IMG/VR virus record: IMGVR_UViG_2609459790_000001
Coordinates: 1 to 38,270 of that record
Strand: one strand, 5' to 3'
Origin: a virus
Lineage: Duplodnaviria > Heunggongvirae > Uroviricota > Caudoviricetes
DNA: 38,270 nucleotides
Part shown: piece by piece, positions 4,229 through 26,090 of the stretch
Position numbering within the stretch: position 1 is the stretch's first letter
Layout of the letters: each line of letters starts with the position of its first letter
Made by a program: the position numbers and the translations under genes
Notes under the pieces: model-generated
Databases searched by the model: none
Told to the model about the DNA's origin: nothing
What the model saw: the letters and a program-made list of their open reading frames with translations, nothing else

Positions 4229-4717
4229 TTATTTGATAAGAAGTGAAGGTTTCCCAACTTTGAGTTGAGCGCCGGGGATATTTATTCCTGCTTTTAGTTG
4301 GTGCTTGATTGCCAACTTGTCGGCTTTAATTGTCGTTTCGAACTCAACGTATTCAGGAGGAAGGGCGCTTGAGTCGATGATTTCTACAATTTCTGACGGT
4401 TTGCGGATTGTTACCTGGTGAATACCTGCTCGAATATTTTTCTTGCCAACCATTTCAAGCGATGACGCTATATATGATTTGATGCTGTCAATCTTATTTT
4501 GAATTACTGCGGCTCGCTCATTCAGTGACTTTGCCTCTTCCTTGAGGCGTTCAGCATAACCAGATTCATTTTTAATGACGGAAAGAAGTTGCTCTATTTT
4601 ATCGGTAAATTCTCCTTCCATGCCTTCTATTGTGTCAGCAATCATCTCTGGTTCTAAATCTGAATCCATCAATTTTGCGTATTCATTGGCAATTTCATAC
4701 AGTTTGCTCACTGGCAA
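4229..4717 (-). CDS. Gp157-like protein (siphovirus Gp157 family), recombinase-associated
   Basis: 162 aa, coiled-coil rich, immediately downstream of the RecT-family gene with overlapping start/stop; pattern matches remembered Sipho_Gp157 family members that accompany RecT/Erf in phages. Confidence 0.55.
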   Translation of the reverse strand: MPVSKLYEIANEYAKLMDSDLEPEMIADTIEGMEGEFTDKIEQLLSVIKNESGYAERLKEEAKSLNERAAVIQNKIDSIKSYIASSLEMVGKKNIRAGIHQVTIRKPSEIVEIIDSSALPPEYVEFETTIKADKLAIKHQLKAGINIPGAQLKVGKPSLLIK

Positions 4718-7209: not shown

Positions 7210-7743
7210 TTACTGGCTCCGTCCATGATTTTCATGAAAGCCATATAGTGCATTGGCTTCTTTCCTTGCTTGTTTGGCATCATCTAAAAGTTTGAATGAG
7301 CCTAGGTATTTTCGTTTTCCATCCACAGTTATCGATGCAACATAAAACCCATGCTCTTTTCTTGCTTCAACACCTGTAACTCCAGTTGATGAAGATGATT
7401 TTAAAGGCATGTTTTTCATATTCTCTTTGAAAGAAACGCTTCTTAAATTGGAGATTCTGTTGTCATCCTTAACGCCGTTTATGTGATCAATCACATCAGG
7501 CCAGTAGCCATGCACGTAAAGCCATGCAAGTCTGTGAGACTTAAATTTTTTACCTCCAATATTTATTCTCAGATAACCCTTGTTGTCAGGTGAGCCAGCC
7601 TTTTTACCTGGATACTTCTTGTTCCACGTCAAGGCAGCTCTGTTATCCGCAAACAAATGCTTTGCTCTCGGCTTCCAATAAAAGTCACCACTCACAGGAT
7701 TGTAATGAAGAATCTCCCTTACAGACGCTTGAGTAAGATCCAC
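7210..7743 (-). CDS. HNH endonuclease with AP2-type DNA-binding domain (homing-endonuclease-like), first gene of the PL operon
   Basis: 177 aa; motif YWPDVIDHINGVKDDNRISNLR (HNH_3 type) and a C-terminal AP2-like segment; GTG start with AGGAGG ribosome-binding site. Confidence 0.85.
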   Translation of the reverse strand: MDLTQASVREILHYNPVSGDFYWKPRAKHLFADNRAALTWNKKYPGKKAGSPDNKGYLRINIGGKKFKSHRLAWLYVHGYWPDVIDHINGVKDDNRISNLRSVSFKENMKNMPLKSSSSTGVTGVEARKEHGFYVASITVDGKRKYLGSFKLLDDAKQARKEANALYGFHENHGRSQ

Positions 7744-12729: not shown

Positions 12730-12896
12730 TTGACCAAAATCGAAGTTACGAACAAGGAAGTGTCGAGCGAGCTTTAACGTGCGCTAACTGCGGTCAGAAG
12801 CTGCATGTGCTGGAAGTTCACGTGTGTGAGCACTGCTGCGCAGAACTGATGAGCGATCCGAATAGCTCAATGTACGAGGAAGAAGATGATGGCTAA
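12726..12896 (+). CDS. ninE: NinE-like small protein
   Basis: 56 aa ORF from a GTG start ([55 protein letters not shown]) matches remembered lambda nin small protein. Confidence 0.75.
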
Positions 12897-13455
12897 ACCA
12901 GCGCGAAGACGATGTAACCGTAAAAGAGAAGATTTAACTGTTAAAAGGATATTTGAGTTACTAAGTTTCGATAAATCTACCGGGGTATTTAGATGGAAAG
13001 TTCCCACTCAGGGAAGGATAGCATTAAATAGTGTTGCTGGAACTTTTGATTCCAACGGTTATTCAATGATCATGATAGATGGGCGTAGATATAAAACTCA
13101 CGTCTTAGTTTTTTACATAACTCATAATCGTTGGCCTGCTGGTCAAATTGACCACGTTAATGGAATTAGGACCGACAATAGGCCAGAAAATTTAAGAGAA
13201 TGCCTGCCAATAGAAAATTCAAGAAATATAAGGATCCGAAAGAATAGCAAATCAGGTTGCAGAGGAGTTACTTGGCACAAACGACAGAAAAAATGGAATG
13301 TTAGGCTAGGTTTCCATGGCAAGAGTAAACACTTCGGATGCTTTGATGATCTGGAGTTAGCGGTACTAGTTGCTGAAGAAGCCCGAGATAAGTATTACGG
13401 TGATTTTTCCGGCAACGAAAGGAGCACTTATGCGAATCTATCGAAGGAAATGTAA
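12886..13455 (+). CDS. HNH endonuclease with AP2-type domain, inserted between ninE and ninG
   Basis: 189 aa; HNH motif [22 protein letters not shown]; paralogous to the ORFs at 7210..7743 and 23913..24434; its first codons (MAKPARRRC) resemble the lambda NinG N-terminus. Confidence 0.85.
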
Positions 13456-20821: not shown

Positions 20822-22987
20822 ATGGCCGACGAAAACAGACTCAATTCCATTCTGTGTAAGTTTGACGCGGACTGGATGGCGAGCGATGAAGCCAGAACCG
20901 AGGCGACAAATGACCTGTATTTTAGCCGAGTGTCGCAATGGGATGACTGGCTATCAAACTACACCACCCTGCAATATCGCGGACAATTCGATGTTGTCCG
21001 CCCGGTGGTCAGGAAGCTGGTCGCAGAGATGCGCCGGAACCCTATCGACGTTCTCTTCCGACCAAAAGACGGTGCTAATCCTGATGCAGCCGATGTATTG
21101 ATGGGTATGTATCGTACTGATATGCGCCATAACACGGCAAAGATTGCCGTTAACGTTGGCGTTCGTGAGCAGATAGAGTCCGGCGTTGGTGCATGGCGTC
21201 TGGTCACACAGTACGAAGACAACGACCCAACAAGCAACAATCAGGTAATCAGGCGCCTACCAATCCATGAAGCCTGCTCACACGTCATATGGGACGCCAA
21301 TAGCAAGCAGATGGATAAGAGCGACGCTAAGCACTGCACGGTGATTAACGCCTTGTCGCGCAATGGCTGGAAAGAGTTCGCAGAGGATTACGGTATTGAT
21401 CCGGACACCTTGCCATCTTTCCAGAATCCGAACGATACATGGCTGTTTCCGTGGGTATCGAATGATGTCGTCTACGTCGCTGAGTATTACGAGGTCGAAG
21501 AGAAGAAAGAAAAAGTCTTCATCTACCGCGACCCGCTGACAGGTGAGCCGGTCAGCTATTACCAGCAGGATATCAAAGACGTCATCGACGACCTGGCTAA
21601 TCGTGGATTCATTAAGGTAGCAGAGCGCAAGGTGAAGCGTCGGCGTGTGTATAAGTCGATCATCACCTGCACGCAGATACTGAAAGACCGCGAGAAGATA
21701 GCCGGAGAGCATATTCCAATCGTTCCAGTGTATGGCGAATGGTCATTCGCTGGTGACAAGGAGTGCTACGAAGGAGTGGTAAGGCTGACGAAAGACGGTC
21801 AACGCCTTCGTAACATGATCATGTCGTTCAACGCCGATATTGTTGCTCGTTCACCGAAGAAGAAACCGACATTCTTCCCTGAGCAAATCGAAGGCTACGA
21901 ATACATGTACGGTGGAAATGATGACTATCCGTACTATCTGCAGAACAGGACCGATGAAAACGGTAGCGACCTGCCGATTGGTCCAATCTCCTACATGGAA
22001 AACCCTGAAGTGCCGCAAGCCAACGCTTACATGCTTGAGGCTGCCACCAACGCAGTGAAAGAAGTGGCTAGTCTTGGCGTGGATGCGCAGGCGGCAAATG
22101 GTCAGGTCGCTTTTGATACCGTCAATCAACTGAACATGCGGGCAGACCTTGAGACGTACGTGTTTCAGGATAACCTGGCTACCGCAATGCGACGTGATGG
22201 CGAGATTTATGCCTCAATGGTCAACGATATTTATGACGTTCCTCGTCATGTAACGCTGACACTTGAAGATGGAAGCGAGAAAGACGTTCAACTCTATGCG
22301 CAAGTTGTCGATTACCAGTCCGGCAACGTGGTCACACTCAACGACATTCGTGGTCGCTATGAGTGCTATACGGACGTTGGGCCATCCTTCCAGAGCATGA
22401 AGGAACAGAACCGCGCAGAGATTCAGGAGTTACTCACCAAGGTTCCGCAAGGTACTCCAGAGTTCCAGATGCTGATGCTGCAATACTTCACGCTGCTTGA
22501 CGGTAAAGGCGTCGAGATGATGCGAGAGTACGCGAACAAGCAACTGGTGATGATGGGGCTGAAGAAACCAGAAACACCTGAAGAAATGGAGATGGTACAG
22601 CAGGCTCAACAGCAGCCGCAGCAGCCATCAGCAGAGCAAATTCAGGCGCAGGGTATCCTTCTGCAAGGTCAGGCTGAATTGCTCAAGGCAGAGAACCAAC
22701 AGGCGCAGATTCAGGTTGAAGCCGCCAAGGTTGAAGCCCAAAACCAACTCAACGCCGCGAAGATTGCAGAAATCTTCAACAATATGGACCTCGACAAGCA
22801 GGCAGAACTGCGTGAGTACCTCAAGCTCGTAGGTCAATTCCAGCAACAGCGCAGCAAAGATGCTCGCGCTAACGCTGAGCTGCTTCTTAAAGATGCAGAC
22901 CAGACTCATTCACAACGCATGGATTTCGCGAATCTTATGCGTCAAGTTCAAATCCCCTCCGGCGGAGTAGCCGAGACACCTCAATAA
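20822..22987 (+). CDS. 1: Portal protein (P22 gp1-like)
   Basis: 721 aa, Gln-rich C-terminal barrel segment ([39 protein letters not shown]), order after terminase as in P22. Confidence 0.93.
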
Positions 22988-23000
22988 GAGAGAGTTAATC

Positions 23001-23912
23001 ATGGACCAAACCACCGACATTCAGGCTTCTGAAGAATTAACCCTGCCCGGCAATCATGCAGCGGCATCTGCTGATGGCTTAGTTGTCGATAATGCCAACG
23101 ACAACGCAGGTCAGGAAGAAGGCTTCGAGATTGTCCTGAAAGACGATGAGAAACCAAAACAAGACCCGGCAACTAATGCTGAATTTGCCCGTCGCCGCAT
23201 CGAACGCAAACGCCAGCGTGAGCTTGAGCAGCAGATGGAAGCGGTTAAGCGTGGAGAGTTGCCGGAGCACCTGCGGGTGAACCCTGAGTTACCAAAACAA
23301 CCAGACCCTAACGATTATCTTTCCGAAGATGCACTGGCTAAGTACGACTATGACCAGAGCCGCGCACTGGCTGCCTTCCAGCAGGCAAACAGTGAATGGC
23401 AGATCAAGGCTATGGACGCACGAAGCCAGGCTGTCGCCGAGCAGGGTCGCAAAACTCAGGAGTTCACCCAGCAATCAGCGCAATACGTCGAGGCAGCCCG
23501 TAAGCACTACGACGCAGCGGAAAAGCTCAATATCCCTGACTATCAGGAGAAAGAGGATGCATTCATGCAACTGGTGCCGCCAGCAGTCGGTGCCGACATC
23601 ATGCGCCTCTTCCCGGAGAAATCCGCCGCTCTCATGTATCACCTTGGTGCTAATCCTGAGAAAACACGCCAGTTGCTGGCGATGGACGGGCAATCCGCGT
23701 TGATTGAACTCACTCGACTGTCAGAACGTTTAACTCTCAAGCCTCGAGCCAAGCCTGTTTCAGAAGCCCCGTTACCTGATGAACCCATTCAGGGACACGC
23801 TGTTGCTGCAAATATCTCTGCGATTGAAAAGCAGATGGAAGCGGCAGCAAACAAAGGGGATGTAGAGACATACCGCAAGCTCAAGGCGCAACTGAATAAA
23901 GGAATTCGATAA
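23001..23912 (+). CDS. 8: Scaffolding protein (P22 gp8-like)
   Basis: 303 aa, same length as P22 gp8, highly charged helical protein between portal and coat. Confidence 0.9.
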
Positions 23913-24434
23913 TTATTTCGATATCGTGATGTTGTTTTCCTCGTCAAACTTTCTGATTACTTCTTTCGCCTCTTCGAATGAAGAACATACTTTTTGCACT
24001 CTTGCATTAAGCAGTCGCTTATGAGCGATCCATCTTTTCCGCGTGTTGCAAAAGTAAACTCCAGATATTCCGCTGGAGTTATTTTTAGATAGTTTGATTC
24101 TATTCCTTTGGTTTGCTGATTTTTTCACAAGACGAAGATTTTCAATTCTGTTGTCGTGGCGAATCCCATTTATATGGTCAATTTCCATGCCTTCTGGAAT
24201 ATCTCCGTTAAACATTACCCATACGATGCGGTGTGCTAGCCACTTAATGCCGTTAATTCTTATGCGGATATATCCATTGCTTTCTAAAAGACCAGCAACT
24301 TTCCCAGCGTGTTTTGCATTCCAAACGTTGTGATAGTTGCGATTCTTTTTGTTGTTGAAAAATTCAGAGCTTCTGGCTTTCCAAACCAAAGAGCCATCGC
24401 GGTATTCGAAGTATTCATTCAGTTCCATGCTCAT
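23913..24434 (-). CDS. HNH endonuclease with AP2-type domain, antisense insertion between scaffold and coat genes
   Basis: 173 aa; motif EIDHINGIRHDNRIENLR; paralogous to the ORFs at 7210..7743 and 12886..13455; AT-rich; stop codon abuts the scaffold stop. Confidence 0.85.
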   Translation of the reverse strand: MSMELNEYFEYRDGSLVWKARSSEFFNNKKNRNYHNVWNAKHAGKVAGLLESNGYIRIRINGIKWLAHRIVWVMFNGDIPEGMEIDHINGIRHDNRIENLRLVKKSANQRNRIKLSKNNSSGISGVYFCNTRKRWIAHKRLLNARVQKVCSSFEEAKEVIRKFDEENNITISK

Positions 24435-24501
24435 AACCCTAATGCGCTATATGTTGATATAACAATAGTATAGCACATAAAGAAAGTAAGGTATTCAATA
24501 T

Positions 24502-25797
24502 ATGACTCTCAAAGAAGGGCAGTTAGTTACTTACGCTATCGATGAAATCATCGAAACCGTCCAGAACCTGACGCCAATGGCGTCAAAAGTGACAAAATAC
24601 ACCCCTCCGGCAGAATCCATGCAGCGTTCAAGCAACACCGTGTGGATGCCTGTTGAGCAGGAAGCGCCAACCCAGACTGGCTGGGATTTAACTGGCAACG
24701 CAACCGGGATTCTGGAACTCTCCGTGAAATGCAACATGGGCGATCCGGATAACGATTTCTTCGAGCTTCGTGCAGATGACCTGCGTGATGAGCGTTCTTA
24801 CCGTCGCCGCATCCAGGCATCCGCCAAAAAACTGGCGAATAACATTGAGTCAGCGATTGCCAAACAGGCAACTGAAATGGGCTCGCTTGTTGTTCACGAT
24901 ACCCGCGCAATTGGTCCATCTACTGGCCTGTCTGGCTGGGATTTTGTGTCTGATGCAGAGCGCCTGATGTTCTCCCGTGAGCTAAACCGCGATATGGGCA
25001 TCAGTTACTTCCTGAACCCTGACGATTACCGTAAAGCAGGCCGCAACCTGGTAGATGGTGACATCTTCGGGCGCGTTCCTGAAGAAGCGTATCGCAACGG
25101 TACTATTCAGCGTCAGATTGCTGGCTTTGATGAAATTCTTCGCTCACCGAAACTTCCGGCAGTTACCAAGTCAACCGCTACTGGTGTAACTGTGTCTGGT
25201 GCGCAGAAGTTTAAGCCGCAGGCATACACCCTTGATACCGATGGTAACAAAGAGAACGTCGACAACCGTGTTGCAACGGTGACCGTATCCTCCACCACCG
25301 GATTTAAGCGCGGCGACAAAATCAGCTTCACTGGTGTGAAATTCCTGTCTCAGATGGCGAAGAACGTGCTGACTGATGATGCAACTTTCTCAATCACCCG
25401 TGTGATCGATAGTACTCACATCGAAATCACGCCGAAACCGATTGCACTGGATGACGCGTCACTGACAAAAGAAGAGAAGGCTTACGCTAACGTAAACACT
25501 TCTCTTGCTGATACCACTCCGGTAAACGTTCTGAACGTGGCAACAACCACCGCTAACGTGTTCTGGGCTGATGACTCAATCCGTCTGCTGTCTCAGCCGA
25601 TCCCGGTAACCCATGAACTGTTTGCTGGCATGAAAACGTCTTCCTTCAGCATTCCTGGTATTGGTGTTAACGGCATCTTCGCAACGCAGGGTGATATCAA
25701 CACTCTGTCTGGTAAGTGCCGTATTGCTGTGTGGTATTCAGCATGTGCTGTACGACCAGAGGCAATTGGTGTTGGTCTGCCTAACCAGACTGCGTGA
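24502..25797 (+). CDS. 5: Major coat protein (P22 gp5-like)
   Basis: 431 aa (P22 coat is 430 aa), strong ribosome-binding site, followed by a strong terminator. Confidence 0.93.
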
Positions 25798-25803
25798 TAA
25801 CCA

Positions 25804-25828
25804 GAGGGAGCTTCGGCTCCCTTTTTTA
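25804..25828 (+). terminator. Intrinsic terminator after the coat gene
   Basis: GGGAGC-TTCG-GCTCCC followed by TTTTTT. Confidence 0.75.
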
Positions 25829-25841
25829 TCTGGAGACAAGC

Positions 25842-26090
25842 ATGACACACATGATCTTTCGTCATGGCGACATGAAGAAGTGGAAAGGAGTTGGCTACGA
25901 CTTTGAAATCGTGAAAGCCGAAGAGCTTCAGGAATATCTGGATGCTGGTTGGTTTTCACATCCTGATGACCTTTTGAAGGATGTTGCAGAGCCGGAGCCA
26001 GATCCGGAGCAAGAGCCAGAAGAAAAACAGCGTAAAAAGCCTGGTCGAAAACCTAAGGCGGCAGCAGATGAACCTGACAACGAAGGGTGA
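25842..26090 (+). CDS. Hypothetical acidic, proline-rich small protein between coat and gene 4
   Basis: 82 aa from the ATG at 25842 with GGAG ribosome-binding site; C-terminus [23 protein letters not shown]. Confidence 0.55.

What the first reader, a model, noticed from the sequence alone, without database searches (positions are those of the whole stretch)
23913..24434. Antisense HNH endonuclease gene between scaffold and coat genes of the late operon
The ORF is on the opposite strand to the heavily transcribed morphogenesis operon, abuts the scaffold stop codon and is AT-rich relative to its flanks. P22-type phages normally have scaffold directly followed by coat. Its expression must come from its own promoter in the 67-bp spacer before the coat gene, and its presence may affect the scaffold-to-coat expression ratio.
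Basis: partly seen in the sequence, partly recalled or inferred. Interest (0 to 1): 0.5.

Follow-up and report, generated by a model that had tools for sequence, protein, structure and literature searches.

The report
Homing endonuclease cassette before P22-type coat gene
A small selfish gene for a DNA-cutting enzyme sits backwards between the scaffold and coat genes of this P22-like prophage; about 9 in 10 close relatives lack it, and it is an ordinary member of a known class of mobile phage genes, though it comes with natural filled, empty and hybrid versions of the site.

Summary
ORF 23913..24434 (minus strand, 173 aa) is an intact HNH endonuclease gene, antisense between the scaffold (23001..23912) and coat (24502..25797) genes, with 37-40% GC against 50-55% in the flanks.

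It is best read as a free-standing HNH-AP2 homing-endonuclease cassette.
- The variable unit is 23913..24540. It holds the gene, a 67-bp spacer, and a coat 5' end with 14 substitutions in 36 bp.
- Of 218 complete E. coli genomes with this junction, 20 are filled. Eight more are "hybrid": no nuclease gene, but 10 of the 14 coat changes.
- P22 and the empty relatives have an overlapping scaffold-stop/coat-start (TAATG).
- Orthologues at 82%, 74% and 59% identity sit at the same site and orientation in diverged P22-like phages.
- Selection on the gene is strongly purifying (dN/dS about 0.06).
- The insert is 3-5 times less diverse than its flanks.
- Coat codons 4-7 read AAY GAA GGT CAA in nearly all gene-less lineages. 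They read NNN GAA GGG CAG in all gene-bearing ones, which points to the likely target and immunity site.
- A conserved extended -10 element in the spacer supports the gene having its own promoter.

No cleavage, homing or transcription was tested. Novelty: new member of a known kind. Interest is modest.

The parts
23001..23912 (+). Scaffolding protein gene (gp8 type). Its TAA stop at 23910-23912 is the left edge of the insertion.
   Evidence: PF09306 at E=1.7e-179. The left junction is identical in filled and empty alleles up to the TAA.
23913..24434 (-). Free-standing HNH-AP2 endonuclease gene, 173 aa. A second ATG at 24428 has better spacing from the AGGG Shine-Dalgarno sequence and could be the real start.
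   Evidence: HNH_3 at E=3.9e-22 and phrog_99 at E=1.3e-50. Intact in 17-18 distinct haplotypes. dN/dS is 0.06 against the L212 orthologue.
24105..24239 (-). HNH catalytic core (residues 66-110), with invariant D86, H87, N95, N99 and N108.
   Evidence: Pfam match to residues 66-110. Invariant columns in a 49-sequence alignment. Sequence and fold match to I-HmuI, 1u3e.
23937..24074 (-). C-terminal AP2-like DNA-binding module (residues about 121-166): a three-stranded sheet plus a helix.
   Evidence: AF2 model with E126-129, E134-140, E145-150 and H153-166. Foldseek hit to AP2 domain 3igm, prob 0.95. Sub-threshold Pfam AP2 match at E=0.005. Many homologues carry PF00847.
24435..24501 (.). 67-bp spacer brought in with the gene. 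It holds the putative HNH promoter (minus strand) and a new coat ribosome-binding site, AAGG at 24488-24491 (+ strand).
   Evidence: Absent from empty alleles. Its 3' end AAAGAAAGTAAGGTATTCAAT is nearly identical to that of the 82% orthologue locus L212.
24467..24475 (-). Putative extended -10 promoter element TGCTATACT for the HNH gene. A -35-like TTGAAT lies at 24493-24498, with 20-nt spacing.
   Evidence: TGnTATACT or TATAAT is conserved in all four diverged lineages. L213 has TTGCAT-17-TATAAT. Not detected by the simple scan. No transcript data.
24442..24478 (.). Inverted repeat (stem-loop) that overlaps the -10 element.
   Evidence: A hairpin is present at the same place in all four lineages, with unrelated arm sequences. 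Z-scores are -2.6 to -4.2 on the HNH strand. Function unknown.
24505..24540 (+). Replaced ('recoded') 5' end of the coat gene: 14 substitutions in 36 bp against empty alleles. Three change the protein (A2T, N4K, L13I).
   Evidence: fixed in every filled allele and absent from the 83 full-flank empty alleles compared; background divergence is 1-2%. The patch is about 85% identical to L212's coat start and 64% identical to the empty allele.
24511..24522 (+). Predicted core of the endonuclease target and immunity determinant (coat codons 4-7). The window reads AAA GAA GGG CAG; the sensitive form would be AAY GAA GGT CAA.
   Evidence: Comparative inference only. E. coli empties, P22 and 13 of 14 diverged empty lineages read AAY GAA GGT CAA. 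All four gene-bearing lineages read NNN GAA GGG CAG. In IMG/VR the GGGCAG form occurs only in filled and hybrid alleles.
24502..25797 (+). Coat protein gene (gp5 type). It is translationally uncoupled from scaffold in this allele.
   Evidence: PF11651 at E=6.4e-164. Empty alleles and P22 have a TAATG overlap.

Best explanation
The region 23913..24540 is a free-standing homing-endonuclease cassette of the HNH-AP2 type, resident at the scaffold/coat junction of P22-like phages.

What the cassette contains:
- an I-HmuI-like HNH nuclease gene with a C-terminal AP2-like DNA-binding module, read antisense to the late operon;
- a 67-bp spacer that carries the gene's own sigma-70-type promoter and a replacement ribosome-binding site for coat;
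- about 39 bp of a donor phage's coat 5' end.

Proposed mechanism (inferred, not shown). The enzyme recognises the gene-less junction of related phages, most likely around coat codons 4-7 (AAY GAA GGT CAA), about 10-21 bp from the insertion point. It nicks or cuts there. Recombinational repair from a cassette-bearing genome then copies the cassette and the adjacent coat 5' end into the cut genome.

Carriers would be immune for two reasons. The insertion splits the junction, and the linked coat 5' end carries GGG CAG and a non-Asn codon 4.

The promoter is independent of the late operon and points against it. Expression is therefore most plausible in the lysogen or early in infection, and should be damped once late transcription runs through.

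A side effect is shown by sequence: the ancestral TAATG scaffold-stop/coat-start overlap is lost, so coat translation must start on its own.
For: Identity:
- HNH_3 and phrog_99 matches.
- The best solved relative by sequence and by fold is the homing endonuclease I-HmuI, with an AP2 domain at the C-terminus.
- PADLOC matches only its 'homing endonuclease' models.
- HNH-AP2 is a recognised class of homing endonuclease genes in phages (PMC10448857; PMC2993671, Table 5).

Presence/absence at one exact site:
- Dewey and Louie are filled. IME10, APC_JM3.2, CurroJimenez and HZ41 are empty at 97.6-98.1% flank identity.
- 20 of 218 E. coli genomes are filled.
- IMG/VR holds 11 filled contigs and more than 120 empty ones.
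- Near-isogenic pair: L006 (filled) and CurroJimenez (empty) differ at 0 of 1500 and 3 of 1257 flank positions.

Recent spread across existing haplotypes:
- Flank diversity among filled alleles (1.05% and 2.03%) equals that among empty alleles.
- Insert diversity is 0.37%. None of 116 equal-length flank windows is as low.

Donor DNA carried along:
- 14 fixed changes in coat nt 4-39 match the coat start of the 82% orthologue's host, L212.

Long-term site fidelity and function:
- Orthologues at 82%, 74% and 59% identity occupy the same site and orientation in phages whose scaffold and coat are only 61-81% identical.
- dN/dS is about 0.06. In the other pairs pN is 0.17-0.26 against saturated pS.

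Target inference:
- Coat nt 18 and nt 21 are T and A in nearly all gene-less lineages. They are G and G in all four gene-bearing lineages, while the other synonymous sites of the patch have drifted.
- The GGGCAG context occurs in IMG/VR only in filled and hybrid alleles.

Promoter:
- A conserved extended -10 is present in four lineages.

Viability of carriers:
- Dewey and Louie are plaque-forming temperate phages (PMC11990801).
Against: - No cleavage, homing or transcription data exist for this protein, so every mechanistic step is inference.
- Linkage disequilibrium in these phages decays to r2 of about 0.04 within 50-100 bp everywhere. The lack of linkage between the insert and its flanks is therefore not evidence of break-induced exchange. 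Ordinary recombination could spread the block.
- The element is at only about 9% frequency, and gain cannot be told from loss.
- The GGG CAG association could be pure hitch-hiking, because those bases lie 18-21 bp from the insert. The four gene-bearing lineages may have inherited them from one ancestor.
- In the one other lineage with sampled empties, the excess of substitutions at the coat 5' end is only about 2-fold (9 of 40 against 16 of 160), because the nearest empty is 12% diverged.
- The promoter has a poor -35 element or poor spacing in three of the four lineages. The consensus scan did not call it.
- I-HmuI is a nicking enzyme (my own knowledge, not checked here), so a double-strand break cannot be assumed.
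Confidence: 0.78

Rival explanations
1. The nuclease is mainly a competition or exclusion weapon kept for the prophage's benefit. It is expressed from the lysogen and cuts the coat-gene start of superinfecting gene-less relatives. Homing would then be secondary or absent. This overlaps with the best explanation and differs mainly in what selection maintains.
For: - The gene has an independent, outward-facing promoter in a block that is otherwise silent in lysogens.
- It is AT-rich and moron-like.
- Strong purifying selection has persisted over deep divergence, which is unusual for a purely selfish element that should decay after fixation.
- The hybrid allele looks like an escape variant.
- Homing endonucleases in phages are documented to cause marker exclusion (PMC2988022, PMC2790892).
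Against: - The only matches in the defence database are its 'homing endonuclease' models.
- The frequency is only about 9%.
- No expression data exist.
- Co-transfer of donor coat DNA shows that the cassette does move between genomes.
Confidence: 0.25
2. The cassette is a passive passenger. It entered once by recombination with a diverged P22-like phage and has since been shuffled among haplotypes by the very high background recombination of these phages. The nuclease does not drive its spread. It may be inactive on this site or act on something else.
For: - Background linkage decays within tens of bp, so recombination alone can place a 628-bp block on many haplotypes.
- The frequency is modest.
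- One frameshifted copy exists.
Against: - dN/dS of about 0.06 and invariant catalytic residues argue for an active protein.
- The same gene occupies the same site in four deeply diverged lineages.
- The insert is much younger than its flanks yet is already on at least 17 haplotypes.
- Heterologous insertions are normally lost rather than spread by neutral exchange.
Confidence: 0.12
3. The HNH protein is a packaging accessory that works with terminase, as HK97 gp74 does in cos phages. (That role of gp74 is from my own knowledge.)
For: It lies in the morphogenesis block, about 3 kb downstream of the large terminase gene.
Against: - It is absent from about 90% of near-identical relatives and from P22 itself, all of which package DNA.
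- It is antisense to the late operon.
- It belongs to the HNH_3 / I-HmuI / AP2 type and is not adjacent to terminase.
- P22-like phages package by the headful mechanism (my own knowledge).
Confidence: 0.02

Closest known systems
I-HmuI (Bacillus phage SPO1, intron-encoded HNH homing endonuclease; PDB 1u3e)
   Same: It is the best solved relative by sequence (E=8e-4, residues 35-120) and by fold (Foldseek prob 0.99). It has the same N-terminal beta-hairpin region plus HNH core with the DH...N...N motif.
   Different: I-HmuI sits inside a group I intron of a DNA polymerase gene and has a C-terminal helix-turn-helix. This protein is free-standing and intergenic, and its C-terminal module is AP2-like. 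Identity is only about 23%.
HNH-AP2 free-standing homing endonuclease genes of phages (for example in RB49, RB43, RB16 and JSE; the 'IPA-HNH' genes of ICP1)
   Same: The architecture is the same: an N-terminal HNH and a C-terminal AP2 DNA-binding domain. The genes are free-standing, sporadic among close relatives, and often sit beside essential or structural genes (PMC10448857; PMC2993671, Table 5).
   Different: Those examples are in virulent T4-like or ICP1 phages. This one is in a temperate P22-like prophage and is antisense within the late operon. Its AP2 module is below the Pfam threshold (17.5 bits against 33.3). The IPA-HNH genes are said to be too divergent for the HNH_3 profile, whereas this protein matches HNH_3 well.
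T4 free-standing homing endonucleases (Seg and Mob families, for example SegB, SegG, MobE)
   Same: The genetic signature is the same. An intergenic gene is present or absent between close relatives, flanking donor DNA is co-converted, and carriers have a variant target sequence near the insertion (PMC2988022, PMC2790892, PMC2330249).
   Different: The nuclease family differs (GIY-YIG for Seg) or the DNA-binding module differs (zinc finger for Mob). T4 genes are usually co-oriented with their neighbours and regulated by T4 middle or late promoters. Homing of the T4 genes is shown by experiment, while here it is not.
Moron-type insertions in lambdoid late operons
   Same: It is an AT-rich extra gene with its own promoter, inserted between two conserved late genes, and dispensable.
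   Different: Morons typically encode lysogen-benefit functions and carry a terminator. This gene encodes a homing-type nuclease, it brought in a piece of the neighbouring coat gene, and its only terminator-like hairpin is not conserved.

Membership tests
HNH endonuclease superfamily (Pfam HNH_3, PF13392) | A profile match above the curated threshold. | tested here: met
   78 bits against a cut-off of 24.8, E=3.9e-22, covering residues 66-110 and 45 of the profile's 46 positions.
HNH endonuclease superfamily (Pfam HNH_3, PF13392) | Catalytic beta-beta-alpha-metal core with the conserved His general base and Asn residues. | tested here: met
   D86, H87, N95, N99 and N108 are invariant in 49 homologues. 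The model shows E83-87, E100-104 and H105-110. The core aligns to I-HmuI's DH...N motif.
HNH-AP2 homing endonucleases | A C-terminal AP2-type DNA-binding domain (three-stranded sheet packed on a helix). | tested here: met
   The model has three strands and a helix at residues 126-166 with pLDDT of about 87-96. Foldseek finds AP2 domain 3igm at prob 0.95. By sequence the match is only sub-threshold (Pfam AP2 at E=0.005, 17.5 bits against 33.3). Membership therefore rests on fold and on homologues that carry PF00847.
Free-standing homing endonuclease gene (functional definition) | Presence/absence polymorphism at one precise site between otherwise near-identical genomes. | tested here: met
   There are 20 filled sites among 218 E. 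coli prophage junctions. One near-isogenic pair differs at 3 of 2757 flank positions.
Free-standing homing endonuclease gene (functional definition) | Carrier genomes have an altered or disrupted target, and flanking donor sequence is co-transferred. | tested here: met
   A donor-type coat 5' end of 14 changes in 36 bp is completely linked to the gene and matches the L212 lineage. That these changes confer immunity is inferred.
Free-standing homing endonuclease gene (functional definition) | Site-specific cleavage of the gene-less allele. | not testable with these tools
   This needs an in-vitro cleavage assay on empty, filled and hybrid junction fragments.
Free-standing homing endonuclease gene (functional definition) | Super-Mendelian, nuclease-dependent inheritance in mixed infection. 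| not testable with these tools
   This needs crosses such as Dewey x CurroJimenez with a catalytic mutant as control. The population data (a young insert on many haplotypes) are consistent but not decisive, given the high background recombination.
Terminase-associated HNH (HK97 gp74 type) | Conserved and required in all members of the phage group, next to the terminase genes. | tested here: not met
   It is absent from P22 and about 90% of close relatives. It lies between scaffold and coat, antisense.
Known anti-phage defence system component (PADLOC) | A match to a defence-system protein model other than the generic homing-endonuclease models. | tested here: not met
   Only two 'HEase' (homing endonuclease) models match, at E=1e-11 and E=2e-7.

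The most novel reading that the evidence does not exclude
The cassette may be a prophage-expressed weapon whose expression is set by its antisense position. A promoter embedded in a lineage-variable hairpin would fire in the lysogen and early in infection, and would be shut off by late-operon read-through. The enzyme would then attack the coat-gene start of incoming gene-less P22-like phages. It would either convert them or kill them. The hybrid allele, which has no nuclease gene but the GGG CAG coat start, would be a naturally selected escape variant. Its recombination junction at coat nt 9-12 could mark the cleavage position. Loss of the TAATG coupling would also make this a natural experiment on scaffold:coat stoichiometry in a model assembly system.
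Probability: 0.2. Interest if true: 0.55.

Novelty: new member of a known kind. Interest (0 to 1): 0.35.

Why it matters
Free-standing homing endonucleases are well studied in virulent phages such as T4, but hardly at all in temperate lambdoid or P22-like phages, where prophage and incoming phage meet routinely.

This element comes with a complete natural allele series:
- filled sites;
- near-isogenic empty sites;
- a hybrid 'resistant-looking' empty site;
- three diverged orthologues at the same site.

It also comes with cultivable phages on E. coli K-12: Dewey and Louie are filled and CurroJimenez is empty. The target prediction (coat codons 4-7) and the homing or exclusion hypothesis can therefore be tested directly with simple cleavage assays and crosses.

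The element also breaks the conserved scaffold-stop/coat-start overlap of a classic assembly model. This gives a natural test of whether translational coupling matters for the scaffold:coat ratio.

None of this is surprising in kind. Its value is as a clean, tractable example.

Tried and rejected
1. Linkage decay as evidence of a break-induced recombination hotspot: rejected. The insert shows r2 of about 0 with SNPs 31-84 bp away, but ordinary SNP pairs in the same flanks also fall to r2 of 0.04 by 51-100 bp.

2. A scan of viral contigs with a coat-protein alignment, to sample diverse lineages: it returned only the 99-100% lineage and was not informative.

3. A 17-mer for the empty junction of the diverged lineages: mostly unrelated hits. 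Only 14 of 120 proved to be real scaffold-coat junctions after screening.

4. A localized recoded patch in an independent lineage (L208 against its nearest empties): only about 2-fold enrichment, because the nearest empty is 12% diverged. Inconclusive.

5. Species-representative genomes (GTDB): no close relative of the nuclease. The donor lineage therefore remains unsampled.

6. The + strand terminator-like hairpin inside the ORF (24057-24080 plus a T-tract) as a device for attenuating coat transcription: rejected as a conserved feature, because it is absent or weak in the orthologues.

7. The idea that the 3' end of the spacer is a diverged duplicate of the scaffold 3' end: not pursued. The resemblance is confined to the ribosome-binding site and A/T-rich spacer, and could be convergent.

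8. My first ORF-integrity script had an off-by-one slice and produced false stop codons. It was corrected.

9. NCBIfam gave no hit. No paper in the searchable library describes the element.

Full report
**1. Observation**

The ORF reported at 23913..24434 on the minus strand exists and encodes 173 aa. It lies between a P22-type scaffolding gene (23001..23912, PF09306, E=1.7e-179) and a P22-type coat gene (24502..25797, PF11651, E=6.4e-164). Both are on the + strand, downstream of terminase and portal.

The HNH stop codon directly abuts the scaffold TAA, and the spacer to the coat ATG is 67 bp. GC is 0.37-0.40 over the ORF and spacer, against 0.50-0.57 in the flanks.

The protein matches Pfam HNH_3 (78 bits, E=3.9e-22) and phrog_99 'HNH endonuclease' (E=1.3e-50).

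The window as a whole is a P22-like (Lederbergvirus) prophage, running from integrase to tailspike.

**2. It is an insertion, and it is larger than the ORF**

In the phage collection, Dewey and Louie carry the whole region at 98.9% identity. IME10, APC_JM3.2, CurroJimenez (Bas106) and HZ41 match the flanks at 97.6-98.1% but lack about 590 bp.

In these empty alleles, and in P22 itself, the scaffold stop and coat start share a base (TAATG).

The alignment puts the left edge exactly after the scaffold TAA. On the right the change continues into coat. There are 14 substitutions in 24505-24540 (36 bp, about 39%), against a background of 1-2% on both sides. All empty alleles share these differences and no filled allele has them.

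The variable unit is therefore 23913..24540. It consists of the nuclease gene, the spacer with a new coat ribosome-binding site (AAGG at 24488-24491), and a replaced coat 5' end. The coat protein starts [13 protein letters not shown] in place of [13 protein letters not shown].

**3. Distribution**

Among 5,426 complete E. coli genomes, 218 carry this junction. Of these, 20 are filled.

IMG/VR gave 11 filled contigs with a nuclease 99-100% identical and more than 120 empty ones. Metagenomes added 5-6 more filled contigs.

No species-representative genome outside this group has a close relative.

All 17-18 distinct filled haplotypes encode an intact 173-aa protein with at most one substitution. 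One E. coli genome (EEC_W5) has a 1-nt deletion that frameshifts the gene. This may be decay or a sequencing error.

**4. Population signature**

Flank diversity among filled alleles is 1.05% on the left and 2.03% on the right. This equals the diversity among empty alleles. The insert plus patch has 0.37%, and none of 116 equal-length flank windows is that uniform. The drop is abrupt, from 2.15% to 0.18% across the left junction.

Filled alleles often have an empty allele as their nearest flank neighbour. L006 (filled) and CurroJimenez (empty) differ at 0 of 1500 and 3 of 1257 flank positions.

The block is therefore younger than the surrounding polymorphism, yet it already sits on many haplotypes.

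I checked whether the absence of linkage to nearby SNPs signals a break-induced hotspot. It does not. Linkage in these genes decays to r2 of about 0.04 within 51-100 bp everywhere.

**5. A third allele**

Eight E. coli genomes and three IMG/VR contigs have no nuclease gene and keep the TAATG overlap and coat codons 2-3 of the empty type. From codon 4 on they carry the filled-type sequence, AAA GAA GGG CAG TTA GTT ACT TAC GCT ATC. That is 10 of the 14 changes, with the same right boundary.

These hybrids form one coat sub-lineage that shares a 3-nt insertion at coat nt 416. They probably arose once.

They could be products of partial conversion or of gene loss. The data cannot distinguish the two. 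Either way they need an exchange point at coat nt 9-12.

**6. Orthologues at the same site**

The large protein database holds relatives at 82%, 74% and 59% identity. All three are encoded antisense between the scaffold and coat genes of P22-like contigs. The scaffold and coat genes of those contigs are only 61-81% identical in nucleotides to the window's.

Selection on the nuclease is strongly purifying. dN/dS is 0.06 against the 82% orthologue. In the other pairs pN is 0.17-0.26 with pS saturated. This is similar to the coat gene.

The 82% orthologue's host (L212) starts its coat gene with ATGACTCTTCGCGAAGGGCAGTTAGTTACATACGCAATC ([13 protein letters not shown]), and its spacer ends AAAGAAAGTAAGGTATTGAAT. 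The window's spacer and 'recoded' coat 5' end are therefore donor DNA from an L212-like, so far unsampled, phage.

**7. Likely target and immunity site (inference)**

Fourteen diverged gene-less junctions recovered from IMG/VR, together with P22 and the E. coli empties, read AAY GAA GGT CAA at coat codons 4-7. There is one exception, AAA GAA GGC CAA.

All four gene-bearing lineages read (AAA, CGC, TCC or TCG) GAA GGG CAG.

Other synonymous sites of the patch differ among the gene-bearing lineages. These two third positions are fixed, but in opposite states in the two classes. In IMG/VR the GGGCAG context occurs only in filled and hybrid alleles.

This is what one expects if the enzyme recognises the conserved AAY GAA GGT CAA and carriers must keep a resistant variant. 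Tight linkage (18-21 bp) and shared ancestry could also produce the pattern.

In the one other lineage with sampled empties, the excess of change at the coat 5' end is only about 2-fold.

**8. The protein**

AlphaFold2 with a 49-sequence alignment gave mean pLDDT 88. Foldseek against the PDB puts I-HmuI (1u3e) first, at prob 0.99, and an AP2 DNA-binding domain (3igm) second, at prob 0.95.

Sequence search agrees: I-HmuI at E=8e-4 and weak AP2 hits. Many homologues carry PF00847. D86, H87, N95, N99 and N108 are invariant.

This is the HNH-AP2 architecture, already recognised as a class of homing endonuclease genes in phages (PMC10448857; PMC2993671, Table 5). PADLOC matches only its 'homing endonuclease' models.

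**9. Expression**

On the HNH strand the spacer has TGCTATACT at 24475-24467. The equivalent element (TGCTATAAT, TGCTATACT, TGTATAAT) is kept in all four lineages, although their spacers are only 70-79% identical.

A -35-like TTGAAT or TTGCAT overlaps the coat ribosome-binding region. Its spacing is good in L213 (17 nt) and long in the others (20 nt). The simple consensus scan missed it.

Each lineage also has an inverted repeat that overlaps the -10 element, with unrelated arm sequences. Its role is unknown.

The + strand hairpin plus T-tract inside the ORF is not conserved.

The loss of the TAATG overlap is a fact of sequence. Its effect on the scaffold:coat ratio is untested. Dewey and Louie are viable temperate phages (PMC11990801).

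**10. Comparison and verdict**

The element behaves like the free-standing homing endonuclease genes of T4-type phages: sporadic, intergenic, with co-converted flanks and a variant target in carriers (PMC2988022, PMC2790892, PMC2330249). By fold and domains it belongs to the HNH-AP2 group.

It meets every membership feature that could be tested here. Cleavage and super-Mendelian inheritance cannot be tested with these tools.

It is not a terminase-associated HNH, because it is dispensable and wrongly placed. It matches no defence-system model other than the homing-endonuclease ones.

The gene is already annotated as 'HNH endonuclease' in GenBank and RefSeq. I found no paper that describes it.

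I rate it a new member of a known kind, of modest interest. Its main value is a clean natural allele series in cultivable E. coli phages.

Noticed in passing
window 7210..7743 (-) and 12886..13455 (+): The prophage carries two more HNH_3 endonuclease genes. One (177 aa) lies between the N-antiterminator and the repressor region. The other (189 aa, with an AP2 match at E=2e-4) lies just upstream of ninG. Both are sporadic among E. coli prophages: only 2 and 29 genomes respectively cover at least 80% of a 1.6-kb query around them. This phage therefore holds three homing-type nuclease genes.
   Followed up: partly
loci L199-L204 (E. coli ECONIH6, NMBU_W05E18, PEC301 and three IMG/VR contigs); corresponds to window 24502-24540: A 'hybrid' allele has no nuclease gene and keeps the TAATG overlap, but has the filled-type coat sequence from codon 4 onward. 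All copies share a 3-nt insertion at coat nt 416 and private SNPs, so they form one sub-lineage. It may be a resistant escape allele or a remnant of gene loss.
   Followed up: partly
window 24442-24478, and the equivalent spacer positions in L212, L207 and L213: Every lineage has a stem-loop or inverted repeat that overlaps the putative -10 element, with completely different arm sequences. On the HNH strand an outer helix can pair the HNH Shine-Dalgarno sequence with the complement of the coat Shine-Dalgarno sequence. It could be an operator, a translational gate as in T4 endonuclease genes, or a structure in the late mRNA.
   Followed up: partly
window 24057-24080 (+ strand), followed by ATTTTT: A terminator-like hairpin on the late-operon strand lies inside the antisense ORF, between scaffold and coat. 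It is strong only in this lineage, weaker in L212, and absent in L207 and L213. It is probably incidental.
   Followed up: yes
L495 (E. coli EEC_W5, CM130020), equivalent to window about 24209: One filled prophage has a single-base deletion at nt 226 of the nuclease gene, which splits it into 85-aa and 102-aa ORFs. This is either the start of decay or a sequencing error.
   Followed up: partly
window 22413-23912 and 24541-25797, compared across 92 haplotypes: Linkage disequilibrium between common SNPs in the portal-end, scaffold and coat genes falls from r2 of 0.26 (within 25 bp) to 0.04 (51-100 bp). Recombination among these prophages is therefore extremely fine-grained.
   Followed up: yes
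locus L410 (IMG/VR contig 2924943408_000006): One gene-less diverged lineage reads AAA GAA GGC CAA at coat codons 4-7 (MSLKEGQ...), unlike all other empties. It is the empty lineage closest to the L212 and window coat genes, at 76-79% identity. It could be a naturally variant target.
   Followed up: no
window 25794-26090 and the equivalent regions of L001-L004: The short region between coat and the gp4-type gene differs in gene content among otherwise near-identical relatives. The window has a 98-aa ORF. Dewey has a 45-aa hypothetical ORF (locus 4370-4507). APC_JM3.2 has a different hypothetical ORF plus an annotated repeat region. This is a second variable spot in the late operon.
   Followed up: no
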